Below are positions 18,526-52,966 of a stretch of 64,000 bases of DNA, in pieces; position 1 is the first letter of the stretch, and each line of letters begins with the position of its first letter. Under the pieces are notes generated by a model that was not told where the DNA came from, ran no database searches, and saw nothing but the letters and a program-made list of their open reading frames with translations. The position numbers and the translations under genes are program-made. This DNA comes from a virus (lineage: Duplodnaviria; Caudoviricetes): the IMG/VR virus record IMGVR_UViG_3300033066_001722, positions 25,817 through 89,816 of that record; one strand, given 5' to 3'.

Positions 18526-18976
18526 CCTTGAAGTTCACGACAGTATCTTCGACCACCTCAAATACGACCGACGCCGATGCGTGCTCTGGGTGTCCGCTCG
18601 GGTTGAACGCTGTGTGGTACTTCAAACTCACACTCTTGATCAGTCCGACTAGCTCGACGAACTCTCCGAAGATCAGAAGAACGTACGGTACCGTCTGCTC
18701 CACGACGCCATGTTCGTTGTCAGGATAGGTAAGCGCGAGCAGACGGTCTGTAGCCTTCGAGACCTCATCTTCTTCAGACCCATATCGGGCGAATTCCAAC
18801 GTGAAGTTGTAGCTGTGTTCCGATACAGGACCAGGTCGATTCCGAGGATTTGAGTGAAGGGGCACAGGCGAGGAAGCTGTGTTCACAGCACGCTTCACTT
18901 CAATATCCTCTGGGAGGTACTGAAACGTCACCTTCGATTGATCTCGAAGGTCGACGATATAGCCTTGGTAACTCAT
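18470..18976 (-). CDS. tail tube initiator (CIS-tube-like domain)
   Basis: FQYLPEDIEVKR, L..LTYP and VLLIFG...GLIKSVSLKY; position between the tape measure and LysM-like genes. Confidence 0.7.
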   Translation of the reverse strand: MSYQGYIVDLRDQSKVTFQYLPEDIEVKRAVNTASSPVPLHSNPRNRPGPVSEHSYNFTLEFARYGSEEDEVSKATDRLLALTYPDNEHGVVEQTVPYVLLIFGEFVELVGLIKSVSLKYHTAFNPSGHPEHASASVVFEVVEDTVVNFKDVRDGAASRTGGTGDVDG

Positions 18977-20226
18977 ATCTCCAGCTCTCCTGAAGTCCAG
19001 ATGAAGCGTGTACTGAGTTCACGATCTGTAGTCGGCCTACGACGCGCCTCATTGAGCTTCTGTTCGTTTGTGAGAGAAGCTCGAACGATGACCTCATCGC
19101 CATACTCTTTGACCTCATGGATCTTGAAGGCAGAGCCTCGAGGGAGTAAGAATTCATTCAGAGGATGCTTACCTCCGTTCGCAAAGAGTGCACCCTTTGT
19201 CCCCTTAGGGAGATCGAGCTCAACTCGAACAAGCTTCTTCTCACCTCGTAATTCATACTTCATGTAAGGTTTGAAATCGCCTCCCGGCAATGATGTTGAG
19301 ACGTAGCCATGATCCCGAAAGACCTTACCAGGACGTAGCTTGCTTAGCAGATCACTATCTGCCGCGAGATACCTCCTTACGGTCGTATCCTCCCTGAGAG
19401 GCGTCTTCATTGCCGAGTCTAGATGCTGTACAGCTCTTCGAATCTCGTCAAGATTGATATCCTTGCGAACCCCTGTCTCATCACTCGGGTGTACAACTAC
19501 ACCTGCACCATCTCGCAGAGCACGATTCATCCAGCTACTACCTGACCCCTGATAGTAGAGCTGAGCTGCCTTTTCATCTTTCGAAAGTGAATGCCAATGA
19601 CCCTTTGCATAGGCTTTGAATTCTCGCACCTCAGGTTTGGACCAGCTACGAAAACTCACAGCCATCTCCTCTGCGTCCTTAGCCTCCCAGACCTTACCTT
19701 CCTTGTGATACTGTTTCGCGAGCTCGTCAAATGCCTTGGCAGCCTTCAGATTAGCTGATTCAGTGGAGAGACGGTCTGCCTCTCGCAGTAGATATTGCGC
19801 ACGATCTTTCAGCTTCTTTGGCTCGGTACCTGCTGCACGATGCTGCATATCTGATTCGAAATTCTTCTCGCTGAAGCCTCGTGACTTGATCTCTCGCATC
19901 AGTATCTTCTGTACAGAAGTATCTGGTTTCGCCTGCCACTCTCGTAGCAGCTCTTCGTCTGAAGCAAGTGCGTACCTTACCTCCTCCAGAGGTATCTTCC
20001 TACCGTCTGAAGTGTACGCATGTGGTCCTTCGACCTTAGCGATCTTTACGAGATCTCCCTTCGTATCTTCAAATTCAGCTCCTACATACTTCGGTTCTGA
20101 TCCTTGAAGACTCTTCACCAACTTCTGTGGCCCTGCCTTGATCTCGCCGTCATCGCCGATGAGTACAGGTGTACCGTTCATCGTGACCCAGCCTTCAAGA
20201 AGGAGACTCTGTAGGTCTTTGATCAT
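18973..20226 (-). CDS. tagged ADP-ribosyltransferase (VIP2/Alt-like R-S-E clade)
   Basis: Start MIKDL at 20226 (ATGA overlap with tape measure stop). YYQGSG..MNRALR, VRRY (R), GYVSTS (STS), NEFLLPRGSAFKI (E). Carries the N-terminal EGWVT module. Confidence 0.85.
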   Translation of the reverse strand: MIKDLQSLLLEGWVTMNGTPVLIGDDGEIKAGPQKLVKSLQGSEPKYVGAEFEDTKGDLVKIAKVEGPHAYTSDGRKIPLEEVRYALASDEELLREWQAKPDTSVQKILMREIKSRGFSEKNFESDMQHRAAGTEPKKLKDRAQYLLREADRLSTESANLKAAKAFDELAKQYHKEGKVWEAKDAEEMAVSFRSWSKPEVREFKAYAKGHWHSLSKDEKAAQLYYQGSGSSWMNRALRDGAGVVVHPSDETGVRKDINLDEIRRAVQHLDSAMKTPLREDTTVRRYLAADSDLLSKLRPGKVFRDHGYVSTSLPGGDFKPYMKYELRGEKKLVRVELDLPKGTKGALFANGGKHPLNEFLLPRGSAFKIHEVKEYGDEVIVRASLTNEQKLNEARRRPTTDRELSTRFIWTSGELEI

Positions 20227-22496
20227 GGGATAGCGCCTCCTCCGCCACCTTCCTTGTGACGACGCTGCTGAACGTCGTCGAGAGCCTCTGCGAATGCTCC
20301 TGCTATCAGCTTCTCGTTCGGACGGTTGTTCGTCATATCTCGACGGAGTCCTCTGATCTCGTCGCGTAGATCTGTACTTCCACGCTCGACACCTGCAGGC
20401 CCACCTCCTGGTCCGGAAACTGCTGCTACAGCGCTCACGTTCGAGTTCGCAGCCAGTGCACCATCCGCTGTCGGATTGCCTGGAGTATAGCTGAATCCTT
20501 GCACACTCCCTACGTCTGCAGTCCACTTGATGGAGGCGATGTTCTGCCAAGCTCCCTGGACGATATCTTTCATCTTCGCTGGGTTCCACGTCTGAGCTAG
20601 CTGTGCCAGCGCGTCTATGACGTAGAAGACAGACTTTCCAATTCCGTCGATCACTCTCCACAGGGTAATGAAGACGTCGATGACAGAACGGAAGATCATC
20701 GCGATCACCTGTCCGGCTGACGACAGCCTCATGAAGCCCGGTGTGAGGTTTCCTGTGATCACGTAGGCTATCACATTCGATAGCTCCCCAAAGATCGAGA
20801 TCACCCAGCCTATGACCTGGAAGATGTCTCCCATGACGTTGAGTGCGAAGATGAAAGCGTCGACGAGGAAGTTGACGACGACGATCACGAAGTCGATCGA
20901 ACGCTTCGTTCCATCCATCTGGTTGGAGACGAGCCCGAAGGACTGTCCGACATCCACAAAGATCTGGAATAGACGTCCCCAGACCGTCAAGAATCCTTCC
21001 ATGACTGGTTGGAGCGCTCCTGCAACACGTCGCCACTGACCTAGGATGAAGCTCAACGCGCTCTTCACGTAGTCAACGATCGAGCCCAACCAGCCTCCGA
21101 CGTTGACGACCCACTCGAAGATGCCTGCATTCTGCAGAGCCTCTGCAGTCTCTTGGGAGAGCTCAGCTGTGCCATTGGACCAAGAGGTGATGACCTCCCA
21201 TAGCCCAACCACTGCATACCGGATCCGGTCGATCAAGGTCGCGAAGCCTCCCCAGTTCTCCATGTAGGCTCGATAGAACACGTACCCTACCGCCACTAAG
21301 GCCCCGATGATCGCCACGACAGTCGCGATTGCAGCAGCGCCTGCGAGTATGGCGGGAATGGCCAAAACGATCACCTTCAAGAACAGACCTACGGCGATTG
21401 CCGCAGAGAGCAGTGCTGCTCCAGCAGTGACGAGAGCAACGGCATAGGCTCCCCAGATCACAACCGTCTTGAAGATCTCTCGATGCTCGGTGATGAACCC
21501 AACGAGGAATCTTGCGACCTTCAGGCCCTGCTGAACGAAGAACGTGACCTGGACGCCGATCTCCTTGAAGACCTCACCGATGGCCTCGAAGAGGGGCTTG
21601 TTCCGCTTCACCTCGATGGCGAACTTGTAGACGTCACTCAACAGCGGGACCATAGCGTCCTGAAGTGGCTTGCCCATCTTGCCCAGGATGTCGTGCCCGA
21701 TGTCTTCGATGTTCTTCGAGAGCTCGTTGAAGGCCATGTCTGTGATGTTCGACATGCCACCGAACTTGTTCTGGACGAGCTGTGCGACGGTCTCAAACTT
21801 CTTCTGCATCCCATGAGCACTGGCGATCGCCTGCTTCTCCCAGGACTTGAGAGGTGCACGAGCGAAGAGTCGTCCGATTAGCTTCTCCAGACCCTTCGCG
21901 TTCTTCCCACCCATGCTGAAGGCGCGTGCCATCGTCTGCTGCATCGCGCCTAGAGACTGGCCGGTGAATGCTGAGAGGTCGTCGAGAGACTCCAGCGCTG
22001 TGATCGATTCTCCAGTGGCTGACTTGACCTTCGCAAGGGCGTCGACGCCCATCTTACCCATAGAGAGTACGAATCCAGCAGCCTCCTTGAAGGCGAATCC
22101 CGCGTTGTCTGCTGCCTCCTCAGTCTTCTCGAAGGTCTCGACGGCCTTGTCCTTGAAGACGATCTGCATCTGCTTCAGGGTATCGTCCATGTCCGCAGCA
22201 GCATGGACTGCGCGCATGACGAAGTCTTTCCCCTGGTTGAGTATACCCATCCCGAAGGCAACGACCTGATCAAGACTCTCCTTGGCATGCTCAATAACCG
22301 CAGAGAGTGTGTTGCCGGCTATGGCCTCGACACTCTCCTTGACCTGCTTGCCAGTGTCCTCCGCAGCGCCTGCGATGTTCGCGAGTGCATCCTTGAACTC
22401 GTCGAACTTCTGCTGCCAGTCTTCCATGACTGTCAGCCGGACACCTGCGTCGAATGCGCCTTGAGCTTCGTCTTCCACGGCTACAGATCCTTCCAC
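20223..22496 (-). CDS. tape measure protein
   Basis: 757 aa, helical and Ala-rich, with a central hydrophobic segment and periodic W/F residues. Located between tube/chaperone genes and baseplate genes. Confidence 0.85.
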   Translation of the reverse strand: MEGSVAVEDEAQGAFDAGVRLTVMEDWQQKFDEFKDALANIAGAAEDTGKQVKESVEAIAGNTLSAVIEHAKESLDQVVAFGMGILNQGKDFVMRAVHAAADMDDTLKQMQIVFKDKAVETFEKTEEAADNAGFAFKEAAGFVLSMGKMGVDALAKVKSATGESITALESLDDLSAFTGQSLGAMQQTMARAFSMGGKNAKGLEKLIGRLFARAPLKSWEKQAIASAHGMQKKFETVAQLVQNKFGGMSNITDMAFNELSKNIEDIGHDILGKMGKPLQDAMVPLLSDVYKFAIEVKRNKPLFEAIGEVFKEIGVQVTFFVQQGLKVARFLVGFITEHREIFKTVVIWGAYAVALVTAGAALLSAAIAVGLFLKVIVLAIPAILAGAAAIATVVAIIGALVAVGYVFYRAYMENWGGFATLIDRIRYAVVGLWEVITSWSNGTAELSQETAEALQNAGIFEWVVNVGGWLGSIVDYVKSALSFILGQWRRVAGALQPVMEGFLTVWGRLFQIFVDVGQSFGLVSNQMDGTKRSIDFVIVVVNFLVDAFIFALNVMGDIFQVIGWVISIFGELSNVIAYVITGNLTPGFMRLSSAGQVIAMIFRSVIDVFITLWRVIDGIGKSVFYVIDALAQLAQTWNPAKMKDIVQGAWQNIASIKWTADVGSVQGFSYTPGNPTADGALAANSNVSAVAAVSGPGGGPAGVERGSTDLRDEIRGLRRDMTNNRPNEKLIAGAFAEALDDVQQRRHKEGGGGGAIP

Positions 22497-23467
22497 ATAT
22501 AGGGTGCTTGATCTGCGTCACCCTCCTCGACTTGATAGCCGAGTTTGCGCCAGACTGCGGGACCGTCTTGTTCTGCGAGTAGCTGAATACGCTTCACACC
22601 TAGACTGCGCAGGAGATTCTCCTCGTGCATCGTCCAAGCACGTGCGAGTCCCTTACCTCGATGACCTTCTTTGGTTGTATACCAGTTCCGAGTTGCGGTC
22701 TGCCCGCTTATGGAGGTTGTACCCTCTGCGGCAATCTTGCCATCCCGAGCGAGGAGCTTGAACTCATATCCTGGCTTGCTGTCTCCTTCTTGGATCTGAG
22801 AGAATCTAATCTCTCCTAACTTATAACCTTGATGCTCGAAGGTGCTGAGCTGTCGGACGACTGCCTTCGGATCTGGACCTCTGTAATCGTTCGAGACTTC
22901 GACCTTCTCTTCCCGATTCGGTGTCCCCTTGAGAGGTCTTGTGTCTCCAGTCGCACGCAAGAGTCCTAGGTTGTACTGACGCTTGATCTCCTTCGCGATC
23001 TGCGATACCTCTCCATGGCGGAGAGGGATGCCCTGGAAGCCACCCGTCTGGTTCAGTCTCACTGAGGTCTTGTGGACGATACCGTCGACATTCGGGATAG
23101 GCTGACGCAGCCCGTTCCAGTCAATCGTCTGGTCGACGTCCTTCCAGACCTCTGCGAAGAGGTCCTTGTTACGCTGCTGAGCCTGATGAATGATGCGATC
23201 GGCATGGTCTAGGGTCGGCTTCTTCGGCATCACATGTGGATTGCCGTACTGGTCTGTCAGGATCCACTGCTTGCCCTCTTTGGTAAGCTCCGCACCGTTG
23301 GAGGAGACGTATCCACCGTCCTTCTGCTCCCACTTGTGAAGTGGCTGTAGATCCTGCTTCACACGTTCTGGTCCTGCCTTGATCTCTCCGTCGTCACCGA
23401 TGAGTACAGGCGTACCGTTCATCGTGACCCAGCCCTCAAGGAGTAACGTGTGGAGATCTTCGATCAT
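22481..23467 (-). CDS. tagged GNAT-family acetyltransferase
   Basis: C-terminal acetyl-CoA motif HRGKGLA...LGVKRIQLLAEQDGPAVWRKLGY. Carries the N-terminal EGWVT module. Confidence 0.8.
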   Translation of the reverse strand: MIEDLHTLLLEGWVTMNGTPVLIGDDGEIKAGPERVKQDLQPLHKWEQKDGGYVSSNGAELTKEGKQWILTDQYGNPHVMPKKPTLDHADRIIHQAQQRNKDLFAEVWKDVDQTIDWNGLRQPIPNVDGIVHKTSVRLNQTGGFQGIPLRHGEVSQIAKEIKRQYNLGLLRATGDTRPLKGTPNREEKVEVSNDYRGPDPKAVVRQLSTFEHQGYKLGEIRFSQIQEGDSKPGYEFKLLARDGKIAAEGTTSISGQTATRNWYTTKEGHRGKGLARAWTMHEENLLRSLGVKRIQLLAEQDGPAVWRKLGYQVEEGDADQAPYMWKDL

Positions 23468-23665
23468 CGCTTTTTCTTGGATTGATTCTGAGCCTTTTCC
23501 ATCCGGCTACGCATGTCCTCGATAACCCGGCTCCGAGATTCGAGGAATAAGCGTCTCTCTTGCAGAGATAAGTCTAGAATGTCGTGATCGGAGAGGTGGA
23601 AATCTCCGAACGAGAGCGCCATTCGTTGTTCGACTTGCTCTGCGAGAGATCCCGCAAGGGCCATG
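23464..23665 (-). CDS. tail/baseplate assembly protein (gp51-like small partner), start approximate
   Basis: SDHDILDLSLQERRLFL pattern right after a gp26-like gene. ATGA-coupled to the GNAT gene. Confidence 0.55.
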
Positions 23666-23687
23666 AAGGCCTGCTGCTTGATCAGCG

Positions 23688-24512
23688 CTACTCTGCGGGG
23701 TCCGGAATCCAAAAATCCGAGGAACCCATCTCGAATCTGGCTTGATACTGGTTGCGGCACTGCTTGCAGGTCATGTTGACGCGCGTATCGACGCCACAAC
23801 CGGCTTTGCCGATCTGCGTGCGCATGTGGAGTCGGTCACGGGTATGAGCCTTCTCCCAGAAGATGTCATGCCGACGCTTGCCACTGGGGCTCGTGTCTCC
23901 ATCGAGACATACGGTCGTCAGCTCCAGAAGCTTCGTGATCGCTCCTGGGTCGTTGTCTTGAACAAGGCGGATCGCATTGGCCTGATCTCGGACCTTCAAC
24001 AGCCGGAACTCAACGACGCGGCGCGACTCCGGCAGGGTCGTCTGTAGCAGCGACGGACTCTGCGTGAGGTGGTCTGCCGGGATGTCCGAGAGATCAAGGG
24101 CGAGCTCGTCTGTCAAGTCCTCCGGCATCGTGCGCTTGCCGTCGAAGAGATGGCAGTTGCACTCTGCATTCCCACAGCGCATGACTTGGATCGTCGCGCG
24201 TCGGAGGTCGATGGTATACTTCTTGGGTGCGCATCCCTTATGCGTCTGTTTGACCTCGTAGGATGGTCCGAGAGACGCCATCCGGATCAGATAGAGCAGG
24301 TGGACTTGCTCTCCGACATACATCTCTCCCTGAACTTCTGCGTCCGGTAGAGGATGGTCCTGCTCGTCTCGCACCAGCGCCTGGATCAGGCGACGATTGA
24401 TTGCCAAGTTCTCGATCGCGTTGTTCGTACCGTCCAAGAGCCAGCGCTCGTGGACTCCAGTCATCGACCCGATCAGGACACGACGACCTGTGTTTGTGAT
24501 AGCTGCAAGCAT
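23688..24512 (-). CDS. tail assembly chaperone / baseplate hub assembly protein (gp26-like)
   Basis: Strong AGGAGG RBS. LPESRRVVEFRLLKVRD, CxxC near the C-terminus, ends DFWIP. Confidence 0.75.
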   Translation of the reverse strand: MLAAITNTGRRVLIGSMTGVHERWLLDGTNNAIENLAINRRLIQALVRDEQDHPLPDAEVQGEMYVGEQVHLLYLIRMASLGPSYEVKQTHKGCAPKKYTIDLRRATIQVMRCGNAECNCHLFDGKRTMPEDLTDELALDLSDIPADHLTQSPSLLQTTLPESRRVVEFRLLKVRDQANAIRLVQDNDPGAITKLLELTTVCLDGDTSPSGKRRHDIFWEKAHTRDRLHMRTQIGKAGCGVDTRVNMTCKQCRNQYQARFEMGSSDFWIPDPAE

Positions 24513-24672: not shown

Positions 24673-25407
24673 CTAGCGTAGGCGGTATGTACGTGCGGCG
24701 TTCTTCTTGAGCCAGTCCTGGCCTTCGAGGTAGCGGTTGTGGTCAGAGACGCGTCCTCGCAACTCCTGCATCAACTCGTCGGAGCGTGCGCTGTGCCCGT
24801 TCTGACGAGTATGGTCTGCGAGTTGGTCGAGAGCCTCGACGCTCGCCTTGCGCGCCTTCTCGTGCGCCTTGTCCAGGTCTGGGCCAGTCTTCGCCTTCGC
24901 CGCTTCCTCGGAAGCTCGTCGCGCAACGTTCGCCTTCGCCTCGACATGATCCGGAACGGCTGACGTCTTGATGTCGACACTCGTATCGGGGACGTATCGA
25001 CCAGTTCGCTTACCGTCGATCAGCTCCGCAACGACAGGACGATGCTGGATTGCCGCAGGACCTGCGACGTCTCCAGCTGCAGCTGCTGCAGTTCCCTTGT
25101 ACTCCCGCGTCCAAGCAGCACGCTCTGCTCCTGTTGAGTTCGAGAGACGCTCGAGATGATCAGCAGCCTGATCGTGCGCCTTGGCTCGATACTGCTTGTC
25201 CTCCCGCTGCTGCGGGTCCTTCTCCTTGCGAGCGTCTGCTCGCAGGCGAGAGCCTTCATCTCTGTGACCTTGAGGAGTCATCTTCCGCAGAGCGGGAGGG
25301 CCCTTGACGACTTCACCGTTGTCATCCAGCTCGATGTGGGTACCGCTGGGTAGCGTGACCCACCCTTCCGTGAGCAACAGTGCTATGTCTGCGACGTGCC
25401 CAGCCAT
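24673..25407 (-). CDS. tagged internal virion protein of unknown function
   Basis: N-terminus LLLTE-GWVTLPSGTHIELDDNGEVVKGPP, followed by charged helical His/Ala-rich sequence. Confidence 0.75.
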   Translation of the reverse strand: MAGHVADIALLLTEGWVTLPSGTHIELDDNGEVVKGPPALRKMTPQGHRDEGSRLRADARKEKDPQQREDKQYRAKAHDQAADHLERLSNSTGAERAAWTREYKGTAAAAAGDVAGPAAIQHRPVVAELIDGKRTGRYVPDTSVDIKTSAVPDHVEAKANVARRASEEAAKAKTGPDLDKAHEKARKASVEALDQLADHTRQNGHSARSDELMQELRGRVSDHNRYLEGQDWLKKNAARTYRLR

Positions 25408-25409: not shown

Positions 25410-25886
25410 CTAGACTGTGACACGACGGTAGCGATCACAAGAGATCTCGACCGTCTCGATTGCAGCTTCGGCATCCTGCATGCTGGAGCGTTCGCCGTGT
25501 GAGTCCTTCACGGGGAAGCAGCCCTCGCACTCCCACTTGTCGATGATCTGATCGCTGTCACCCTTGTCGATGATCGTCAGACCACGCTTGTAGCGTGCGG
25601 CTCCGATACTCTGCCCCGTCTCCGGATCGCGGACCTGACGCATCCAGTCCCAGAAGAAGGTATCGCTCGAGTTCGCAGGCATCACCTTCTTCAGCGTGAT
25701 GTTGCCGAACTTCCAAGCGCCTGCAGTCTTCTGCTTCGTCGCACTGCCTGGAGGCGCGTGCTCGACTGTCCCGAGCTCAGAGTCTGGGATCGAGACAGAC
25801 TGGACGAGCGCAACGGGTAGACCTTCGCACTCGACGAGGAAACGAAATGTCTTCCGTGGATCAACTTCTTGAGCTTCGATGGCCAT
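25410..25886 (-). CDS. tail tube protein (T4 gp19-like)
   Basis: FRFLVE, KFGNITLKK, FFWDW and W...GCFP motifs; directly after the sheath gene. Confidence 0.92.
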   Translation of the reverse strand: MAIEAQEVDPRKTFRFLVECEGLPVALVQSVSIPDSELGTVEHAPPGSATKQKTAGAWKFGNITLKKVMPANSSDTFFWDWMRQVRDPETGQSIGAARYKRGLTIIDKGDSDQIIDKWECEGCFPVKDSHGERSSMQDAEAAIETVEISCDRYRRVTV

Positions 25887-31779: not shown

Positions 31780-33270
31780 CTACGTCAGGGTGACGGTCGC
31801 GAAGGCCTTCGCGTTGATGCACTTCTTGCCGGCACGAGACAGCACGCCCTTGCTGTACTGGAAGTTGGCCGACGGATCCGGCATGGTCGGGGTCCAGGTC
31901 AGCAGCGAGTATGGCGCAAAGACCGCTGCCATGTACATGGGGTTGTCCGCCTTGTAGCCCAGCAGGATCTTGCTGGCGGGCATGAAGGGGTCCATGTAGA
32001 CCTGCGTGGTGCCGCTGTTGACGGTGCCGAACAGGATGCGCTTCTCCAGCGTCGCCGTGTTGCTCACGCCGATGCCACCGCGATCGACCGACGAATCCAG
32101 CTGGCGGAAGCCCGAGATCAGGCGCAGCCGTTCGGCGGCATCACTGCCGGCGATCAGCCAGTTGGCCCGTGCATTGCCGTTGGTCGCCTTCCAGATCATC
32201 TGATCGGCCTTGATGATCGCCTGGCCCAGGGTGGCCTCGTAGGCCAGCCGACTCGCGGTATCGATGTCACCGGCCAGATAGCCGGCGGTGCTCCAGTTGA
32301 CGTTGCCAGCGCCGTTCATCGCGGCTTCGACCAGCATCATCCGCACCAGCTGCCGGTCGATCTCGCGATCGAGCTGGTTGCTGGCTGCATCGACCATCTC
32401 CTGCTCCAGGTCGCCGTTGTGATAGGCACCGAAGTCCTGGCGAGACTGCTCGGTGAACAGGAAGCGCAGCGTCATGTCCGTCGCGGTCAGCGTCTCGCTG
32501 GTCATCTTCATGTCCAGCTCACGCGGCGTGTCGCCTTCGGCATAGGTCGCGTACATGACCTTGATCTTGGCATTCAGCGCCGGAGCGACACCGAAGATCA
32601 CACGGCCACGCCCGTTCACACCACCATTGTCGACGGTGAAGTCGGTCGTGTGGGTCTTCTCGACTCCGTTCACGAAGACGCGGACGCGGCTGCTCGAGAA
32701 GGCACCAGCAGTGGCAGTGGTCTTGACCGCGGTCGTCTCGACGACGAAGGTGGTCGTGACACCGTCACCGGTGAAGCTCTCGGGCGACTCACCCCAGCCC
32801 GAGTAGTTCGGGTCGACGGCCTGATCCAGGCGATCCGCAGCGGTCGTCGGATACTTGGTCGAGGCATAGCGGTGATCGATATAGAAGATCTTCGCCTCGG
32901 GTGTGGTCATCGGCCACACGGTGCACAGACTGCGGGCGTACAGCTGGATGTACAGTCGGCGGATCAAGGGCAAGGCCACCTTGACGAAGGGCTCGACCGC
33001 CGAGGTCGTGACGGCCTCGCGCAGCTCCTTCGGCGACATGCTCAGCGCCTTGCGCCCCAGGCCCAGCCCGGTGTGAGACGCCAGCTCATTGACGTGACGC
33101 TCCAGCAGCAGCTCCAGGCCGATGCGACATCCCATGCCGTAGGCTTCCTGGACGTCGACGAGCTTCAGGCTCTTGTCGGCACCGTAGCCGGTGTACATCG
33201 ACCACTTCGAGGCACGATCGGGATTGTGAACCAGCCACGGGATGCGCGGCTCTTCGGTATGCGTATACAT
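31780..33270 (-). CDS. major capsid protein (T4 gp23-like) with an inserted beta-sandwich domain
   Basis: LIRRLY, VWPMTTPEAKIFYID, EIDRQL, ANWLIAGS, VYMDPF and AVFAPY motifs. Confidence 0.93.
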   Translation of the reverse strand: MYTHTEEPRIPWLVHNPDRASKWSMYTGYGADKSLKLVDVQEAYGMGCRIGLELLLERHVNELASHTGLGLGRKALSMSPKELREAVTTSAVEPFVKVALPLIRRLYIQLYARSLCTVWPMTTPEAKIFYIDHRYASTKYPTTAADRLDQAVDPNYSGWGESPESFTGDGVTTTFVVETTAVKTTATAGAFSSSRVRVFVNGVEKTHTTDFTVDNGGVNGRGRVIFGVAPALNAKIKVMYATYAEGDTPRELDMKMTSETLTATDMTLRFLFTEQSRQDFGAYHNGDLEQEMVDAASNQLDREIDRQLVRMMLVEAAMNGAGNVNWSTAGYLAGDIDTASRLAYEATLGQAIIKADQMIWKATNGNARANWLIAGSDAAERLRLISGFRQLDSSVDRGGIGVSNTATLEKRILFGTVNSGTTQVYMDPFMPASKILLGYKADNPMYMAAVFAPYSLLTWTPTMPDPSANFQYSKGVLSRAGKKCINAKAFATVTLT

Positions 33271-33310: not shown

Positions 33311-34654
33311 TTAGCGCCGAGCTCCCGACAGCCGTGCTTCGTGCTCGTCGAAATCCTTGGCTCGCAGTGCGTCGCCATCTGCCTGGCTGTGACCACGCTG
33401 GGTGGAGACGCCTGTCGCCTCCAGCAGGGCCTTCTGACGCTTGACAGCCTTCAGGGCCTCCTCGACGGAGTTCGGGAACTCCACATCGCCATAGGCCTCG
33501 GTCAGCTGCTTGCCGACGCGGACGCCGCCCTTCGCAGGGTTGGCACCCAGCACAGCGACCTGCAGCATCTCCGCCAGCGGATGACCCTGCGTCGCTTCCA
33601 TGACTGCGGCCTTGACCTGGCTGCGCACGCGCTCGGAGCGGACCTCCTCCAGGAGGGCGCTGTTGGCGCGGTTCTGCGACATCTGCTCATTCAGCTGGCG
33701 CTTCGTCGACTCCAGCTCGTCGCGGATCAACGCGACCTGGGTGTTCGTCGCCTCGTTCAGGTTCGCTGACTTGTCGTTGGCCGTCCGCAAGGCTTCGGTC
33801 AGATTCTCGATGCGATTCAGCAGCGGAGCCTCGGCAGCCTCGCGAATCGCCTCCTCACGTGAGGCCACTTCGACTTCGGCCAGCGACGTCAGGACTCGCC
33901 GCGACAGCTGCAGCGCCTCCGTGATCAGCCCCTTGTAGGTATCCGGCACGAGCTTCCGTAGCTCGAGTACGTTCTTCGTGTTGAGAGCGCCGAAGACTTC
34001 AGGCGCGTTCTCCTTCAGCCATTCGAGCTTGATGTCGCCTTCCGGCAACGTGATGGTCTTGGGCATCTTCCTTGACTCCTGCAATGAGGTCATCTTGGCT
34101 GTGCTGACAGAGGGATTCAGGACGAGATCCCATCCTCGCAGCCGTAGATCCTTCTGGACAATGGAACCACGCTGACCGTTGATCTCTCCCTCTTGCACTG
34201 TCCCCTGCGCTCGACTGCTGACGCCGAGAGGTACACCTAGGCGGGCGAGCGCCAGGACATCTCGTCCTCGTGCTGTGTCCGGGATGAGGAAGACGCCATT
34301 GGCGATCTTCTTCTGTGCCTCGTCAAGGTCGTAGTCCTTCAGGACCACTGCGACCTCGCCTGCGCGATATCCCTGGTCGTCCGCTGGGTGCCCATCGAAT
34401 CCTGGGACTGGCTCATTCGCCAGGACCTTGCCCTTGAAGTCCGCTGCGACTTCACGCAGCGTGTCCCACGGGTAGATCCGCTTGTTCTGATTCAGCCGAT
34501 CGCCCTCTTGGATCGTCGCGAACCGCAGGATCCCGATAGAGCCAGGAGGTAGCTTGGGCTTCGTCCCCTCCTGGAGCTCCTGCTCTTCGAGGCGATATTC
34601 CTTGGTGATCAGTACTTCGTTGAGATCTTGTGCAGCCACCCTGTGGACTATCAA
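33311..34654 (-). CDS. prohead protease (T4 gp21-like) fused to a scaffold-like coiled-coil region
   Basis: NQNKRIYP, DGHP (His), LGVSSRAQG (Ser), WDLVLNPS; helical C-terminal half. Confidence 0.9.
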   Translation of the reverse strand: MIVHRVAAQDLNEVLITKEYRLEEQELQEGTKPKLPPGSIGILRFATIQEGDRLNQNKRIYPWDTLREVAADFKGKVLANEPVPGFDGHPADDQGYRAGEVAVVLKDYDLDEAQKKIANGVFLIPDTARGRDVLALARLGVPLGVSSRAQGTVQEGEINGQRGSIVQKDLRLRGWDLVLNPSVSTAKMTSLQESRKMPKTITLPEGDIKLEWLKENAPEVFGALNTKNVLELRKLVPDTYKGLITEALQLSRRVLTSLAEVEVASREEAIREAAEAPLLNRIENLTEALRTANDKSANLNEATNTQVALIRDELESTKRQLNEQMSQNRANSALLEEVRSERVRSQVKAAVMEATQGHPLAEMLQVAVLGANPAKGGVRVGKQLTEAYGDVEFPNSVEEALKAVKRQKALLEATGVSTQRGHSQADGDALRAKDFDEHEARLSGARR

Positions 34655-34691: not shown

Positions 34692-35432
34692 CTAGGCGAG
34701 TTCAGCTTCCAGTTCAGTCTGGGTCATGAGCGGGAATCTGAATCGTAAGGTAGAGACGTCTGAGGTGTCTTCGCCGCGTTGTGCGAGAGACTTTCTCCAC
34801 TTGCCCCAGTATGATGAAGATTCATCGATCAACATCTCACCTTTCGGTCGAGTACGATCGAATACCTTAACGAACGGGTTTGATGTAGTGTGACCAGCTA
34901 CAGTATGAGCATAGACGGAGAGATCGAACTCTTCGACGAGATCATCGAAGATCCTCTGAGCTGTATCCACAGAAGAACAAGCGTAGAAGATGATCTTAGG
35001 CGAGGAAGACGAAGCCTGGCTTTGAGAGGAAGACGAAGCAGTGGAGTAGATTTGAGCTTCTGATGAGCAAAGCGAATCAGAAGCGATTGGAAGCGACGCG
35101 AAGCGGAGCGCAATGCGAAGCGCACTGACGGCATTGGGGTACTCCGGTGTGCGGGGATCAAGTAACTGGGTTGCATTCGGCCAACCATGCATCAAGAACG
35201 CAAGATAGTCGAGCGAACCGACCTCACGAAAGAAGTCGGTGATCTGTTGCATACGGTTCGAGATAGGTTGATCGATGTCAACGCGTAGCGTACGCGGATA
35301 CCCTGCCGAGATGGGCTTGGTCTGTAGGAAGCGTCCGAGCCGTTCAGACTCTGGCTTGAACGCTCCCTGGAAGTCGTGCTCGTGCTGATTGCGATCGGGC
35401 GTGATAATGATAGGACGTTGCGGCTGGTACAT
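34692..35432 (-). CDS. hypothetical protein, possible clan CD (caspase-like fold) cysteine peptidase
   Basis: FLMHGW and IIFYACS (HG...C dyad spacing), with a Ser-rich insert. Confidence 0.45.
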   Translation of the reverse strand: MYQPQRPIIITPDRNQHEHDFQGAFKPESERLGRFLQTKPISAGYPRTLRVDIDQPISNRMQQITDFFREVGSLDYLAFLMHGWPNATQLLDPRTPEYPNAVSALRIALRFASLPIASDSLCSSEAQIYSTASSSSQSQASSSSPKIIFYACSSVDTAQRIFDDLVEEFDLSVYAHTVAGHTTSNPFVKVFDRTRPKGEMLIDESSSYWGKWRKSLAQRGEDTSDVSTLRFRFPLMTQTELEAELA

Positions 35433-35454: not shown

Positions 35455-37101
35455 CTAACCTGGGAACCGCTTACGGACCTTCTTGGTGAAGCGGTCCTCG
35501 AGCGCCGTGTGATCCTTAACCGCCTTCTCGTGGGTCTCAGCGGACTTGTGATCACCAGCCTGTCGCGCAGCGATCGACGCGATCGCGTGTGCTTCCTTCG
35601 CCGCCTTGTGGCTGTTCACGCGATCGATGTCAGTAGATGCGGCTGTAGCCTTCGAAGAGGCCTCGACAGCTTTGTTGGTCGCAGTCTTCGCCACATAAGC
35701 CTTGTGTGCGGCAGCCTTGGTCTCTTCTGAGTCTGCAGAGTCGTGATAGTTGCGATTGTTGCGTTTCTTGCTGTCGACGCGTGCTTGCTGGACTTGCTTC
35801 TCCTGTGCAACGTTAGCAGCGTGACGCGCGTTGAGCCCCGGATCCCCTTGAAGCGTCTTGTCGTTGTAGGCTGCTCGCGCCGCTTGCGTCGCGTCTGTCG
35901 CCTTCGACAAGGCTTCCGCACGCTTCCTCTCCTCATACGCTTTCTCTGCTGCAGCCTTGGTTTCTTCTGTATCTGCCGAATCGTAGTAGTTGCGACTACG
36001 TGATTTGGAGGCTTTCGTCGCATCATCCGATGCCTTCGGAGCCAGCGCCATCTTTTGCTTGTTCGAGATGCGCTCAATCTGGCGCTCCTGGTCGGTCTTC
36101 GGCAGGTGCCCGAAGTTCTTCTCGATGTGCGCACGAGACGTCTTGTCGATCTCGTCGAACTTCTTATGGAGGTCCTCATGCCCAGGCTCTGGTCCGAATC
36201 CGTTCTTGTGCTGGACACGTGCGATGTGGAACTCCTTCTGTGCGGGAGTGCCTGACGTCTTCTCTTCGACGTGCCGACGGATCTCTGCAGCCTTCTCAGT
36301 CTTCTGATCCTGATCCTCTCGCTGCTCGTTGCGATGAGCTTTGACCACGTTGCGGAAGGCGCTGTTGAATACTTCCTTCGGATTGACCTTGTTGAGGTCA
36401 TCTCCGCTTCTCGCAACGGTGTCAGCGAAGTGCCGCCCTGCGCTCGAGTCCAGGAACGCTCGTATTTCGTCGTCGCTGTGCCCTGCAGGAGCGTTGGACT
36501 TCAGCCAGCTGTGGGCCTTCGCGTAGTCAGCTTTGATCGCCGGATCGTCTTCGCTCTTCCCAAGATGCTTGGTCGTCTGGAGTTCACCGTGGTAGCCTCG
36601 CCCAGGATTCTTCGTCTCGATCTCGGGTTTGTCCAGATGCTGGCGTAGGAGGTCCTCGACCTCCTTCTTGTTCTGGCCACCTCTCTCTGGGATATGGTGG
36701 AACTCTCGATGAGTCTCTCCATCGGAGACTACAGTCTTACGAGGACCTCCGACAGGACCTTCCTGTTCAACCTTCAGCTCCTTGCCACCGTGCGTTAGGT
36801 AGAAGCGGTTGAAATTCGCCGTACCGACCTCAGGTAGGTTCTTTTTGTTCGGGTATGGCTTGTCGCTTCCCGCTTCAACTCGTCTCGCGCGATCACCGAG
36901 GGTTCCCTTCGGTCCACGATCGCGCCGAAGGGATTCGAGACCCTGCGAGGTCGCACGCTCGAAGCTCTTACCCTTGAGACCTGCGGGACCTCCTTCGACC
37001 TCGCCCGTTTCGTCGTTGATCATGATCCGGGCACCGTTAACGGTGATCCAGCCCTCAACGAGTACCTGTTCAACCTGATCTGTGATGTTCTGCTGAGCCA
37101 T
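35455..37101 (-). CDS. tagged internal virion protein, 548 aa
   Basis: N-terminus VLVE-GWITVNGARIMINDETGEVEGGP. Charged; internal repeat NY[YH]DSAD[TS]EETKAAA[EH]KAY occurs twice. Confidence 0.8.
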   Translation of the reverse strand: MAQQNITDQVEQVLVEGWITVNGARIMINDETGEVEGGPAGLKGKSFERATSQGLESLRRDRGPKGTLGDRARRVEAGSDKPYPNKKNLPEVGTANFNRFYLTHGGKELKVEQEGPVGGPRKTVVSDGETHREFHHIPERGGQNKKEVEDLLRQHLDKPEIETKNPGRGYHGELQTTKHLGKSEDDPAIKADYAKAHSWLKSNAPAGHSDDEIRAFLDSSAGRHFADTVARSGDDLNKVNPKEVFNSAFRNVVKAHRNEQREDQDQKTEKAAEIRRHVEEKTSGTPAQKEFHIARVQHKNGFGPEPGHEDLHKKFDEIDKTSRAHIEKNFGHLPKTDQERQIERISNKQKMALAPKASDDATKASKSRSRNYYDSADTEETKAAAEKAYEERKRAEALSKATDATQAARAAYNDKTLQGDPGLNARHAANVAQEKQVQQARVDSKKRNNRNYHDSADSEETKAAAHKAYVAKTATNKAVEASSKATAASTDIDRVNSHKAAKEAHAIASIAARQAGDHKSAETHEKAVKDHTALEDRFTKKVRKRFPG

Positions 37102-37104: not shown

Positions 37105-38814
37105 CTAGACGTCTCCAATTCGGGTGTCGAGAGGACGATTAAACTGAATGAGCTCCTGGATACACTCCACGAGTTCATTGACTTGTCGGTTGAGCGATTC
37201 AATCCGAGTACGGTCATTGACCGGGATCGGAGGGGCTCCACGCGGGGTCGGACGCTTGACGATCGGCTGACCGTCCTCCGGCTTTGCCGCGTCCGCGGCC
37301 TGGCCACCTGTCGCTTGCATCGCCGCCATGGCCTCTGCCTGCGATTCTGCGGCCTCTTTCTTAAGGAGGGCTACCTGGGCCTTGGCCTCCTTTTCGGAGA
37401 AGCCTAGGTGTCGAATCAGGAGCTGTTCTCGTGTAAGCAGCTTGGCCTCCTGCCCCAGAGCAACGATCGTATAGCGCAACTGGTCGACCTTCATCGCTGT
37501 CAGATCGTCGATCTGGGAGAGGGATGGAAAGGTCGTTCGAACGACCACGTCGTCCACGACCGACTTCGAGTATCCTTGGCAACGCAGCTCCACACGACAG
37601 CAGCGTACGATACCGTGCGCGTAATCCTTACGCACACGTCGTATAGCGCGCAGGAAGTTCATGATGGCGATCGTAGGAGCGGTGTCTCCGGACAGCGTAG
37701 CGTTGCCATTGCTGGAGAACCAACCTCGATACATCCCGAGTCCCATGAAGAGGCGATCATAGATCATGTCCATGTCGCCAATCTTCGAGATGTTGGGGTC
37801 CCCCTGCATGCGCTCGACGTCGTTCTTGCTCTTGTCACTGACAGGGATGTAGATGTCCTCGTCTGAGCGAAGAGGATTCGTCCGCATCTCCATCTTGCCG
37901 GACGCATCTGTATAGCGCGTCCGCTTCGTCTCTCGCCTGAACTTCATCAGGTAGATGAGACGATCGACAGGGTTCATGTCTGCGACATCAACCTTCCACT
38001 TGTAGCGTGGTTGACTGTTGGCGAGCCGATTGATGACCATACCATCGAAGAGAAGCTCAAGGATCTTCGCAAGTCTGTCGACTGAGCGGAGGATCGAGGT
38101 ACCATAGACCTGTCCAGCACTGAGCTGGAGCATGAAGTGGCAGACCTGCCAACGATCGAACTCAGCGGCGCTCTCCTGATCCTTCGAGATAGCAGGCGGG
38201 ATTCCATACTGCTTATAGCCGAGGACGTCTCCGGAGTTGTCGAACTGCTTCTCCATAGAAGCGGGAGGTCGGTAGCCGATCTTCGACAAGCCCATAGGCG
38301 TGACGATGAGTTCCCAGAAGCTGTCGCCGAACTTGCACATCTCTCGGACAGTCTGCCAGGCATAGTCGGGTAGGCCCGTGCGTCGGAGCATTGCCTCTAG
38401 GATCTCTTGCTGCTCGGGATCTTCAACCTTGACCTTGAAGACCTCGTCCTTGTCGACCATCGAACCGGCGACTGCGTAGTCCGCGTACATGTTCAAGGCT
38501 GTCGTGATCTCAGGTAGGTTCCGATCCATCTCCTCGTAGCGCGCGTACCGATCGTAGCGGATCGTACTCTGGTTGAGCCAGTCCAGATAGCTGTCAGCGT
38601 AGAGACCGCCATACCAGAGTAGAGGATTCGAGGTACCCTCTTCGGTGGTCTTGGACTGTCTGCGCTTGAATGGATCGTCGTCGTCGCCGATACCTCGACG
38701 CAGTTCTGCAGCTGCAGAGCGTACCTTCAGGCCTGTAGGCTCCTCGAGCTTCTCCTCTGCGAGGTCCCCTCGAAGAGCACGATAGGCTCCATACAGACGA
38801 TCGAACACGGTCAC
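37105..38814 (-). CDS. portal protein (T4 gp20-like)
   Basis: RYEEMD..PEITTALNMYAD, GTSIL, DGMVINRL..SQPRYKWKVDV and SDEDIYIP. Confidence 0.93.
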   Translation of the reverse strand: MTVFDRLYGAYRALRGDLAEEKLEEPTGLKVRSAAAELRRGIGDDDDPFKRRQSKTTEEGTSNPLLWYGGLYADSYLDWLNQSTIRYDRYARYEEMDRNLPEITTALNMYADYAVAGSMVDKDEVFKVKVEDPEQQEILEAMLRRTGLPDYAWQTVREMCKFGDSFWELIVTPMGLSKIGYRPPASMEKQFDNSGDVLGYKQYGIPPAISKDQESAAEFDRWQVCHFMLQLSAGQVYGTSILRSVDRLAKILELLFDGMVINRLANSQPRYKWKVDVADMNPVDRLIYLMKFRRETKRTRYTDASGKMEMRTNPLRSDEDIYIPVSDKSKNDVERMQGDPNISKIGDMDMIYDRLFMGLGMYRGWFSSNGNATLSGDTAPTIAIMNFLRAIRRVRKDYAHGIVRCCRVELRCQGYSKSVVDDVVVRTTFPSLSQIDDLTAMKVDQLRYTIVALGQEAKLLTREQLLIRHLGFSEKEAKAQVALLKKEAAESQAEAMAAMQATGGQAADAAKPEDGQPIVKRPTPRGAPPIPVNDRTRIESLNRQVNELVECIQELIQFNRPLDTRIGDV

Positions 38815-46657: not shown

Positions 46658-46664
46658 CCTCTAC

Positions 46665-49827: not shown

Positions 49828-49844
49828 GGGAGGCTCCTATCTGG

Positions 49845-51692: not shown

Positions 51693-51696
51693 AGAT

Positions 51697-52458
51697 CTAC
51701 TCCTCGTCCCCTTCAAAGTCCATCGAGTCTATGTCGATCGAACCAACGATGTCTGCGACGATCTGCGCGATGTACTCTTCTGGAGTCATCTGACCAGATG
51801 CCTCGTGCTGCTCGTCGAAGGAGCTCGGGAGGACGCCCTTACGCCCCAGAGCCTTCTTCAGGCCCGTCTTCGTCGCCTTCGTGACGGCCTTCTTCATCAG
51901 TAGCTTCGACGTCGCGCCCTTGAACAGAGTTGACTTGCCTAGAACGCCGATGGCACTGGAGGCCACCTGTCCCTTCAAGGACAGGAGTAGTGCGAGGGTG
52001 GCGATATCCTTGAGCTGATCAATCGCGACCGTCTTCTCTTCGTCAGTCACTGGCTGTCGACGTGCCATCTTCAGCATCGTTGACGCCATGACCTTCGTCT
52101 GCGTCGCCTCGCTCTTCAGAGCACTCTTGACGTTGTTGACGAGTTCAGCTCGACCTTCCTTGGTAGTCAAGGTCTTCCAGAACTTGCCCAGCGCCTGTAC
52201 CTTCTCCTGCGCAGCTCCCTTCAGCTTGTCCACGATGCCAGTCTTCGGCGTTTCGACTCGGCCTCCGTGTTCGTCTGCGAAGTCCGGCTCGTGTCCGGAG
52301 ATACCGTTCAGTTCGTCTGGGTGTTTGCCGACGAAGTCTGGTGGTCCCTTGATGATATGGCCATCGTCGCCAATCATCACGTGGACCCCGCGGAGGGTGA
52401 GCCATTCACCCTCGTCGGCTTCAAGGAGTTGTGTGTGGAATCGAAGGAGCTGACTCAT
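51697..52458 (-). CDS. tagged internal virion protein with a hydrophobic C-terminal segment
   Basis: QLLEADE-GEWLTLRGVHVMIGDDGHIIKGPP; later IATLALLLSLKGQVASSAIGVLG. Confidence 0.75.
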   Translation of the reverse strand: MSQLLRFHTQLLEADEGEWLTLRGVHVMIGDDGHIIKGPPDFVGKHPDELNGISGHEPDFADEHGGRVETPKTGIVDKLKGAAQEKVQALGKFWKTLTTKEGRAELVNNVKSALKSEATQTKVMASTMLKMARRQPVTDEEKTVAIDQLKDIATLALLLSLKGQVASSAIGVLGKSTLFKGATSKLLMKKAVTKATKTGLKKALGRKGVLPSSFDEQHEASGQMTPEEYIAQIVADIVGSIDIDSMDFEGDEE

Positions 52459-52476
52459 GCGAGTCAGGATAAAGGA

Positions 52477-52966
52477 CTAGCTGTCGCCACTGTAAGGATT
52501 CTTCGGATCTTTGGCAGGGTAGTGGGTATAACCGCTACCTCCCGAGGATACACCTCCGGTCGACTTCACATGATGATCCGCAAGGGCTTCGATCGCATAC
52601 TGCCTCTTCGATTCACCATATCGACCTCCAATTGGCTTACCCTCTGCGTCGTACATACGATATCTAGTCTGTGTCGCGTAACCTGAAGCGATCCGGCTAC
52701 CTGCAGACCGGACCGCGACGCGATCCTCATACTTCTCGACATGGCCTACGACTTTGCCATCCACTGTGACTGGCTGCTTGTTCGAGTGGCTTCGACTCGG
52801 CGTCCTTGAACACCTTGTCGCGAAGACCCTTCGGTCCTCCTGTGACCTCGCCTGTATCGTCGTCGATCAGGATGCGAGCGCCGTTGACCGTGATCCAGCC
52901 CTCAGTAAGGAGGGTATCTAGACGTCCGAGGATCCCGTCCGCCAGTTTGCGTTCTAAGCTACTCAT
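52477..52966 (-). CDS. tagged protein split over two frames (52727..52966 and 52477..52764): frameshifted or two overlapping ORFs
   Basis: Tag ORF starts MSSLERK at 52966 with a GAGG RBS and loses similarity to its paralog after KPLE. The +1 frame continues ..KQPVTVDGKVVGHVEKY and has no good RBS. Confidence 0.55.

What the first reader, a model, noticed from the sequence alone, without database searches (positions are those of the whole stretch)
18973..52966. Modular N-terminal tag shared by six scattered proteins: candidate capsid-loading/ejection system for polymorphic effectors
Seen in sequence: six minus-strand ORFs begin with the same module of about 25 aa, after a leader of 11-22 aa ending in E. 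They are 20226 (LLLE-GWVTMNGTPVLIGDDGEIKAGP), 23467 (identical core), 25407 (LLTE-GWVTLPSGTHIELDDNGEVVKGP), 37101 (VLVE-GWITVNGARIMINDETGEVEGGP), 52458 (LLEADE-GEWLTLRGVHVMIGDDGHIIKGP) and 52966 (LLTE-GWITVNGARILIDDDTGEVTGGP). Two pairs are also similar at the DNA level (about 20131-20226 vs 23372-23467; about 37031-37057 vs 52878-52904), which suggests tag shuffling. Everything after the tag is unrelated: ART, GNAT, charged helical domains, a hydrophobic domain. The genes are interleaved among head and tail genes. Established: T4 loads IPI-III and Alt into the head via N-terminal capsid-targeting sequences that gp21 removes after I/L-x-E. Inference: the leader is the cleaved propeptide and the W-T-NG-D-GP hairpin is a reusable packaging or ejection signal. 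I recall similar motifs in uncharacterised phage proteins but cannot confirm whether a function has been described.
Basis: partly seen in the sequence, partly recalled or inferred. Interest (0 to 1): 0.93.

Follow-up and report, generated by a model that had tools for sequence, protein, structure and literature searches.

The report
Shared N-terminal tag on phage cargo proteins
Six unrelated proteins of a large T4-like phage start with the same short leader and a 30-residue beta module; this module, which no database or paper searched here describes, also heads the cargo units of giant head-associated "polyvalent" proteins in many uncultured phages, so it probably marks proteins carried in the phage head.

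Summary
Exactly six minus-strand ORFs in the 89.8-kb viral contig begin with a leader of 11-22 aa ending in L-x-E, followed by W-[VI]-T-x-N-G…D-x-G-x-[VI]-x-x-G-P. The parts after the tag are mutually unrelated.

A profile of the tag finds 466 protein clusters among 1.84 billion. Many are proteins of 1,000-3,000 aa with 2-6 internal copies, about 300 aa apart. These are often fused to portal, MuF, DUF2213 or prohead-protease domains. They carry the effector set of phage polyvalent proteins: ART, GNAT, kinase-PolyVal, NUDIX, 2H, Zeta toxin, InPase and Topo IB. Immediate neighbours are mostly terminase, portal and MuF genes.

Pfam, PHROGs, NCBIfam, PDB sequences and the literature searches all lack the module. 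AlphaFold2 predicts a helix, an L-x-E linker and a three-stranded beta meander.

The window phage has a T4-type portal, capsid protein and protease. The protease carries a scaffold-like tail with 13 [LI]-x-E sites in 252 aa. A T4-style cleaved targeting leader is therefore well supported by inference.

What the beta module itself does is not shown. Candidates are an exit or retention signal, a junction marker, or DNA or host binding. This scan has noted the tag only on this same genome, not on other DNA.

The parts
18973..20226 (-). Gene A, 417 aa: tag (residues 1-33, nt 20128-20226) plus an Alt-like ADP-ribosyltransferase. Its ATG overlaps the stop of the tape-measure-like gene (ATGA).
   Evidence: PF03496 2.4e-14; phrog_802 Alt-like 8e-9; for coordinates.
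22481..23467 (-). Gene B, 328 aa: tag (nt 23369-23467) plus cargo with a weak GNAT-like C-terminus. The ortholog in a relative is 182 aa and lacks that half.
24673..25407 (-). Gene C, 244 aa: tag (nt 25297-25407) plus a charged helical cargo of no known family. It lies directly after the tail tube gene.
35455..37101 (-). Gene D, 548 aa: tag (nt 36985-37101) plus a charged, repeat-containing cargo. It lies directly after the portal gene, where T4 has core genes 67 and 68 (T4 gene order recalled from memory).
   Evidence: (phrog_8020, unknown function).
51697..52458 (-). Gene E, 253 aa: tag (nt 52342-52458, leader LLE-ADEGE-W) plus cargo with a moderately hydrophobic stretch.
52727..52966 (-). 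Gene F, 79 aa: the longest leader (22 aa) plus the tag (nt 52832-52966), then an early stop. A protein-like frame continues at 52477-52764.
   Evidence: structure model.
33311..34654 (-). Prohead protease, about residues 50-190, fused to a scaffold-like C-terminal half with 13 [LI]-x-E sites in 252 aa. It is the presumed enzyme that removes the leaders.
   Evidence: phrog_207 5e-22; Peptidase_S77 5e-4, below cut-off.
37105..38814 (-). T4-type portal protein.
   Evidence: Portal_T4 3.2e-31.
31780..33270 (-). T4 gp23-type major capsid protein with L-R-E|A at residues 83-86, ahead of the conserved mature N-terminal region.
   Evidence: relatives carry PF07068 Gp23.
53077..54111 (-). Type IB topoisomerase directly upstream of F and E. 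Its N-terminus reads …L-D-M-V-E-N-V-W-S-E-E-D-H-P-R-D-S-D-G-R-F. It is a possible seventh cargo protein carrying a different short motif.
   Evidence: Topoisom_I 6.9e-16. Topo IB is also a cargo domain in module-bearing polyvalent proteins.

Best explanation
The six genes encode internal (head-carried, probably ejected) cargo proteins of a large T4-like phage. Each has three parts. (1) A short amphipathic leader ending in L-x-E, equivalent to the T4 capsid-targeting sequence. It would bring the protein into the prohead core and be cut off after the Glu by the gp21-type protease. (2) A module of about 30 aa forming a three-stranded beta meander (W-[VI]-T-x-N-G / x-x-[VI]-x-I / D-x-G-x-[VI]-x-x-G-P), followed by a Lys-rich linker. 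It would become the mature N-terminus. (3) An exchangeable effector or structural body. The beta module is homologous to the element that heads each cargo unit in phage polyvalent proteins, so this phage carries an unfused polyvalent protein spread over six genes. Shown: the anatomy, the homology, the distribution, the fusion to head proteins, the neighbourhood and the predicted fold. Inferred: virion location, cleavage at L-x-E, and the role of the module. My preferred role is a lineage-independent handling signal that every cargo unit needs, for exit with the DNA or for retention, rather than one specific to a given head. The confidence of 0.6 is for the overall reading. For the module acting specifically as an exit or packaging signal I give about 0.3-0.35.
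For: Six copies only, at N-termini, with unrelated bodies. T4-type portal, capsid protein and protease in the same module. [LI]-x-E density is 4.5 per 100 aa in the protease-scaffold gene against 1.03 window-wide, and its C-terminal half gives P=3e-6. The capsid protein has L-R-E|A at the gp23-like position. T4 CTS leaders are 10-20 aa, are removed by gp21 and suffice to load foreign proteins. T4-type and giant-phage proteases cut after Glu (PMC9026906; PMC5694885). The AF2 model places L-x-E in the linker between the helix (3-19) and the strands (24-27, 30-34, 40-43), with pLDDT 74-82 in the module. The profile finds 466 clusters. Among the best 150, 57 proteins are multi-copy with a median spacing of 314 aa, and 54 of 88 single-copy proteins have the module in the first 40 aa. 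Fusion partners in two independent samples are portal families, MuF, DUF2213 and Peptidase_S78, plus ART-PolyVal, Kinase-PolyVal, LPD1, LPD3, InPase, NUDIX, 2H, Zeta toxin and Topo IB. Of 124 genes within two positions, 12 are portals, 10 are MuF and about 14 are large terminases. One 99%-complete 100-kb phage has 10 copies in about 7 genes between its portal and DUF2213 genes. Another has 10 copies in 6 genes beside MuF, ART and capsid genes. Some homologs start M-x(1-6)-W with no leader, which fits the module being the functional N-terminus. Close relatives keep the tags but vary the bodies. Another T4-like contig has L-V-L-E before its module.
Against: There is no proteomic or expression evidence for any of these proteins. 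The protease match to Peptidase_S77 is below Pfam's cut-off, and there is no PDB sequence match. In a non-T4 lineage the conserved motif before the module (R-M-D-[DE]-[DE]) is absent from that phage's scaffold and capsid proteins, so cleavage there has no independent support. Three of the six genes lie among tail genes, although T4 alt does too (Iyer 2017). No module-bearing protein was found in 50,697 GenBank phage records by tblastn, so no studied virion can be consulted.
Confidence: 0.6

Rival explanations
1. The beta module is only a processing-junction element. It is a small, stable fold that exposes the preceding acidic or L-x-E segment to a protease and defines where cargo units are separated. 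It has no targeting or ejection function of its own.
For: The module always sits at boundaries: portal|cargo, MuF|cargo, cargo|cargo and leader|cargo. The 10 residues before W are acidic (-0.114 net charge per residue against -0.011 background), and 143 of 223 copies have at least 2 D/E in the last 6 residues. L-x-E lies in a predicted linker. Two module-bearing ORFs carry Peptidase_S78.
Against: The module is conserved across phages whose head proteases differ or are unknown, whereas the sequence before it is lineage-specific. Leaderless proteins start directly with the module, where nothing needs cutting. The R-M-D-D-E motif is not shared with other head proteins of the same phage.
Confidence: 0.2
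2. The module acts on a universal ligand rather than on the capsid. It could bind the packaged DNA, like the basic T4 internal proteins, so that each unit leaves with the genome. Or it could bind a conserved host component after delivery.
For: The module is independent of head lineage: T4, lambda, Mu, SPP1 and portal_3 types. The 20 residues after it are basic (+0.107 per residue; Lys 16.8% against 8.2%). A solvent-exposed invariant Trp on a three-stranded sheet resembles small DNA-binding sheets; this is my own recollection of Sso7d-type proteins and was not tested.
Against: There is no sequence or fold match to any DNA-binding or host-binding domain. The best Foldseek rows are single beta hairpins of choline-binding or CROP repeats at E about 2.5. 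The module itself is slightly acidic.
Confidence: 0.12
3. The tagged proteins are loaded into the tail lumen or baseplate, as in the N-terminal loading signals of contractile injection systems, rather than into the head.
For: A, B and C are interleaved with tube, hub-like, tape-measure-like and CIS_tube-like genes and are translationally coupled to them.
Against: Homologous modules are fused to portal, MuF and prohead protease domains, never to tail proteins in either tally. Their neighbours are terminase, portal and MuF genes. D follows the portal gene. The L-x-E leader fits a prohead protease. T4 alt is also encoded beside baseplate genes yet is packaged in the head.
Confidence: 0.05
4. The tag has no virion role. 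It is a shared N-terminal segment spread by duplication and recombination, or a shared intracellular localisation or regulatory element of non-structural proteins.
For: Two tag pairs are similar at DNA level, with sharp similarity boundaries at the tag end. No expression or virion data exist.
Against: Conservation extends to very distant phages at protein level only. The invariant W, T, G and G-P residues and a confident predicted fold indicate selection on the peptide. Direct fusion to head proteins and head-operon context are unexplained by this reading.
Confidence: 0.03

Closest known systems
T4 capsid-targeting sequences (CTS) of IPI-III and Alt, removed by prohead protease gp21
   Same: Short N-terminal leader ending in L/I-x-E. 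Unrelated bodies, including an Alt-like ART. A T4-type portal, protease and capsid set. The ART gene sits beside tape-measure and baseplate genes. DNA-level conservation of the leader-coding segment permits shuffling.
   Different: T4 CTS proteins have no conserved domain after the cleavage site. Here a 30-aa beta module follows in every case and is shared with non-T4 phages. Cleavage and packaging are not demonstrated here.
Phage-type polyvalent proteins (Iyer et al. 2017, PMC5512222)
   Same: The module occurs in such proteins together with ART-PolyVal, Kinase-PolyVal, LPD1, LPD3, InPase, 2H, NUDIX, GNAT, MuF and portal domains, in head operons.
   Different: The window phage has six separate single-cargo genes, not one giant protein. 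The main text of the paper that I read (sections 8 and 29, plus a keyword search of the whole text) describes no such short module. No Pfam LPD model covers it. The paper's supplementary domain list could not be checked.
MuF polymorphic toxins of temperate phages (Jamet et al. 2017, PMC5576092)
   Same: A head-protein carrier with variable C-terminal toxin or effector domains. MuF is fused to, or adjacent to, module-bearing genes.
   Different: There the conserved part is the roughly 300-aa MuF domain. No short junction motif is mentioned. The window proteins have no MuF domain.
Paralogous ejection and inner-body proteins of giant phages (phiKZ, SPN3US) with shared N-terminal propeptides cut after A/S-x-E
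   Same: Several head-internal proteins share an N-terminal propeptide and are cut after Glu by a gp21-related protease (PMC5694885).
   Different: Those propeptides are mostly over 100 aa, and the proteins are paralogs throughout. No W-x-T…G-P module is reported.

Membership tests
T4-type CTS / gp21-processed internal head proteins | N-terminal propeptide of about 10-20 aa ending in L/I-x-E | tested here: met
   Leaders of 11-22 aa end in L-L-E, L-T-E, L-V-E or L-L-E(ADEGE). L and E are invariant columns. Relatives keep them.
T4-type CTS / gp21-processed internal head proteins | The phage encodes a gp21-family prohead protease, and other head proteins carry the same sites | tested here: inconclusive
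   phrog_207 head maturation protease gives 5e-22, but Peptidase_S77 gives only 5e-4, below its cut-off, and there is no PDB sequence hit. Supporting this feature: 13 [LI]-x-E in the 252-aa scaffold-like tail (P=3e-6) and L-R-E|A in the capsid protein.
T4-type CTS / gp21-processed internal head proteins | Protein present in virions with the leader removed | not testable with these tools
   This needs virion mass spectrometry. No cultured relative was found.
Phage polyvalent proteins (Iyer 2017) | Several functionally disparate domains in one polypeptide | tested here: not met
   The six window proteins each carry one body. Their homologous module, however, occurs in genuine polyvalent proteins.
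Phage polyvalent proteins (Iyer 2017) | Shared domain vocabulary and head-operon context (portal, terminase, MuF) | tested here: met
   ART-PolyVal, Kinase-PolyVal, LPD1, LPD3, InPase, MuF and portal fusions are present. Neighbours are rich in terminase, portal and MuF.
Cell-wall / choline-binding repeat (CW_binding_1, CROP) | Tandem 20-aa GW…YYF…G hairpin repeats recognised by the Pfam model | tested here: not met
   The only structural resemblance is to single hairpins at Foldseek E about 2.5. There is no Pfam hit at E<=0.1. The module is single, not tandem.

The most novel reading that the evidence does not exclude
The 30-aa beta module is a portable signal, independent of head lineage, that every cargo unit of a tailed phage needs to leave the capsid with the DNA or to be held for ejection. 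Polyvalent proteins would then be strings of such tagged units, and this T4-like phage shows the unit in its free form. If so, the module would be a general tag for loading or delivering arbitrary proteins by diverse phages, beyond the T4-specific CTS.
Probability: 0.3. Interest if true: 0.85.

Novelty: new variant of a known kind. Interest (0 to 1): 0.68.

Why it matters
Proteins that phages inject with their DNA are first-strike weapons against host defences. How they are chosen for packaging and release is understood only for T4's short leaders. A small, sequence-recognisable module now marks cargo units across T4-, lambda-, Mu- and SPP1-type heads. It gives a direct way to list candidate injected effectors in metagenomes, to delimit the units of giant polyvalent proteins, and to test experimentally whether a common loading or exit signal exists. 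It is also a candidate tag for protein delivery by engineered phages in laboratory hosts.

Tried and rejected
- **Nucleotide and capsid searches.** A megablast of 20 kb against GenBank phages found no match. A tblastn with the capsid protein found only distant T4-like capsids at about 24% identity.
- **Searches for cultured phages with the module.** tblastn with F, P0032, P0001, P0039, P0052 and P0111 gave nothing usable. The only rows were E>=0.06 matches to T7-like lysin genes and one unannotated faecal phage record matching a non-module part.
- **Family and structure libraries.** Pfam, PHROGs and NCBIfam gave no match on the tag. A PDB profile search found nothing. A Foldseek search of PDB was not significant. 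The ESM Atlas returned an unrelated low-score row.
- **Literature.** Literal motif strings gave no relevant paper. Keyword searches of Iyer 2017, Jamet 2017 and the 2021 jumbo-phage survey, plus sections 8 and 29 of Iyer 2017 read in full, found no short junction module.
- **Locus finding.** The search for related loci with the tag profile gave only 2 loci and failed on the broader alignment. A strict DNA pattern in 185,579 prokaryote genomes gave 1 hit.
- **Complex prediction.** The job pairing the protease-scaffold protein with F residues 1-50 returned 'no answer'. It is not evidence either way.
- **Catalytic or self-cleaving module.** Rejected, because the His in G-x-H-V is replaced in four of the six window copies (Pro in A and B, Arg in D and F).
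- **Cleavage motif in a non-T4 lineage.** I tested whether the R-M-D-D-E pre-module motif recurs in that phage's scaffold or capsid protein. It does not.
Full report
**Observation**

The six minus-strand ORFs exist as described. Their starts are at 20226 (A), 23467 (B), 25407 (C), 37101 (D), 52458 (E) and 52966 (F).
- Each has a leader of 11-22 aa, then L-x-E, then G-W-[VI]-T-x-N/S/R-G-x-x-[VI]-x-[IL]-x-D-x-G-x-[VI]-x-x-G-P.
- The invariant alignment columns are L, E, W, T, G, D, G, G and P.
- In E the L-L-E is followed by A-D-E-G-E before the W.
- A regex over all six frames and a protein search of the whole contig find exactly these six copies. The contig is an IMG/VR record of 89,816 bp, estimated 36% complete by CheckV, and the window covers its bases 25817-89816.

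At DNA level, A and B are 85% identical over 99 nt, from the ATG to the G-P codons, and similarity ends there. D and F are 83% identical over 72 nt. The bodies after the tag share no BLASTP similarity.
- A is an ADP-ribosyltransferase (PF03496 2.4e-14; Alt-like phrog_802 8e-9).
- B has only weak GNAT matches.
- C, D and E match no annotated family.

The starts are supported in two ways. A and B have ATGA overlaps with the preceding genes (coordinates). Gene calls in relatives begin at the same Met.

**Context**

The region is a T4-type morphogenetic module on the minus strand:

| Gene | Coordinates | Evidence |
|---|---|---|
| Portal | 37105-38814 | Portal_T4 3e-31 |
| D | 35455-37101 | tagged |
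| Unknown | 34692-35432 | 246 aa |
| Prohead protease | 33311-34654 | phrog_207 5e-22; Peptidase_S77 5e-4, below cut-off |
| Major capsid protein | 31780-33270 | phrog_138 4e-35; Gp23 in relatives |
| Sheath | 25893-28163 | |
| Tube | 25410-25886 | |
| C | 24673-25407 | tagged |
| Baseplate-hub-like gene | 23688-24512 | |
| B | 22481-23467 | tagged |
| Tape-measure-like gene | 20223-22496 | |
| A | 18973-20226 | tagged |
| CIS_tube-like and baseplate genes | downstream of A | |

Two points bear on the protease.
- The protease gene is twice the length of T4 gp21. Its C-terminal 252 aa hold 13 [LI]-x-E sites, against a window-wide rate of 1.03 per 100 aa (binomial P=3e-6). That is what a gp22-like degradable scaffold looks like.
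- The capsid protein has L-R-E|A at residues 83-86, just ahead of the segment that aligns by eye with the start of mature gp23.

Published work supports the comparison. T4 CTS leaders are 10-20 aa, are removed by gp21 and suffice to load foreign proteins. T4-type and giant-phage proteases all cut after Glu (PMC9026906; PMC5694885). T4 alt also lies beside baseplate genes (Iyer 2017). The tail-module position of A, B and C therefore does not argue against head packaging.

**The module elsewhere**

A profile of the six N-termini was run against 1.84 billion representative proteins. It gave 466 hits at E<=1e-3 and 29 at E<=1e-10.

I re-scanned the best 150 locally and found 222 W-x-T-anchored copies in 145 proteins.
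- 57 proteins are multi-copy, with 2-6 copies and a median spacing of 314 aa.
- In 54 of 88 single-copy proteins the W lies in the first 40 residues.
- Some proteins start M-x(1-6)-W with no leader.

The 10 residues before W are acidic and the 20 residues after G-P are Lys-rich. The sequence further upstream is lineage-specific:
- L-x-E in T4-like contigs;
- Y-R-x-R-R-D-A-R-x-K-K-R-M-D-E-E in a large family of small proteins;
- other motifs elsewhere.

Pfam tallies of two independent samples show the same partners. The samples were 34 long hits and 86 non-redundant ORFs from an IMG/VR DNA-pattern scan, in which 113 of 120 loci were confirmed by the profile.
- Head proteins: five portal families (7 and 11 proteins in the two samples), Phage_Mu_F, DUF2213 and Peptidase_S78.
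- Effectors: ART-PolyVal or ADPrib_exo_Tox, Kinase-PolyVal, LPD1, LPD3, InPase, NUDIX, 2H phosphoesterase, Zeta toxin, Topo IB, GNAT, His_Phos_1 and Gln_amidase.

Among 124 genes within two positions of module genes, 12 are portals, 10 are MuF and about 14 are large terminases.

Three whole examples illustrate the pattern.
- A 99%-complete 100-kb phage has 10 modules in about 7 genes between a portal-NUDIX-module fusion and DUF2213.
- A lambda-like phage has a portal-module-Kinase-PolyVal protein.
- A contig has 10 modules in 6 genes next to MuF, two ART genes and capsid genes.

This is the repertoire and setting of the phage-type polyvalent proteins of Iyer et al. 2017. In that paper I read sections 8 and 29 and ran a keyword search of the whole text, and found no such short module. 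The paper's supplementary domain list could not be checked. Pfam-A, PHROGs, NCBIfam and the PDB sequences do not cover the module, and motif strings find no paper. tblastn found no module-bearing protein in 50,697 GenBank phage records.

**Structure**

I ran AlphaFold2 on F with a 68-row alignment. It gives a helix (residues 3-19), a linker holding L-T-E (20-23) and three strands (24-27, 30-34, 40-43). The pLDDT is 74-82 in the module. N-G and D-x-G are the two turns. Foldseek finds only single hairpins of choline-binding or CROP repeats at E about 2.5, which is not significant.

**Reading**

The unit is a lineage-specific leader, an acidic or L-x-E junction, a universal beta module, a basic linker and a variable body.

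In this T4-like phage the leader fits a CTS removed by the prohead protease. That would leave G-W-[VI]-T as the mature N-terminus, the same state that leaderless homologs have from the start.

The module also sits in portal and MuF fusions, which are in the head anyway. Every unit of a polyvalent protein has its own copy, and the module is shared by phages with unrelated head lineages. For these reasons I favour a role needed by each unit regardless of head type, such as exit with the DNA or retention for ejection. I favour this over head-specific targeting and over being merely a protease site.

This step is inference. The rivals are listed with their odds: junction marker only, DNA or host binding, tail-lumen loading, and no virion role. 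In a non-T4 lineage the pre-module motif is not shared with scaffold or capsid proteins, so general cleavage is unproven. A complex prediction of the protease-scaffold protein with the tag gave no answer.

**Polymorphism**

Close relatives keep the synteny and the tags but change the bodies.
- The B ortholog is 182 aa, 82% identical over 178 aa, and lacks the GNAT-like half.
- The D ortholog has large indels.

Together with the sharp DNA-similarity boundaries at the tag ends, this supports cassette exchange behind a conserved tag, as described for T4 internal-protein loci (PMC9026906).

**Verdict**

The mechanism is plausible but untested. I class it as a new variant of a known kind (head-packaged, protease-processed cargo and polyvalent proteins), centred on a short domain that I could not find described anywhere. 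Earlier notes of this scan concern only this same genome.

Noticed in passing
window 52477-52966 (-): F stops after 79 aa. A second frame then continues for about 95 codons with protein-like sequence (…V-T-V-D-G-K-V-V-G-H-V-E-K-Y-E-D-R…). This may be a frameshifted or recoded tagged gene, or an assembly error.
   Followed up: partly
window 53077-54111 (-): The type IB topoisomerase begins …L-D-M-V-E-N-V-W-S-E-E-D-H-P-R-D-S-D-G-R-F. An [HQ]-P-R-x(2-5)-G-[RKQ]-[FWY] motif also occurs in 5 of the 150 module-bearing proteins. It may be a second kind of junction or tag motif in head cargo proteins.
   Followed up: partly
window 33311-34654 (-): The prohead protease is fused to a roughly 250-aa coiled-coil-like, [LI]-x-E-rich tail. 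It appears to be a protease-scaffold fusion, unlike the separate T4 genes 21 and 22.
   Followed up: partly
window 35455-37101 (-): Cargo D contains an internal repeat (…R-N-Y-[YH]-D-S-A-D-[TS]-E-E-T-K-A-A-A…, twice). It differs from its ortholog by large indels in this region.
   Followed up: no
L006 1-16129; G001 26-47 kb (L009, L010): Some phages devote 15-20 kb between the portal and scaffold genes to strings of module-bearing genes, with 10 modules per genome. The leaders there read R-R-[SA]-V-…-R-M-D-[DE]-[DE].
   Followed up: partly
P0028 and P0144 (hits): Two of the top 150 profile hits look like false positives. One is a Cys-rich N-D-D-G-N-V-C-N-G-P repeat protein. The other is a 5,949-aa protein with three identical long repeats.
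   Followed up: no
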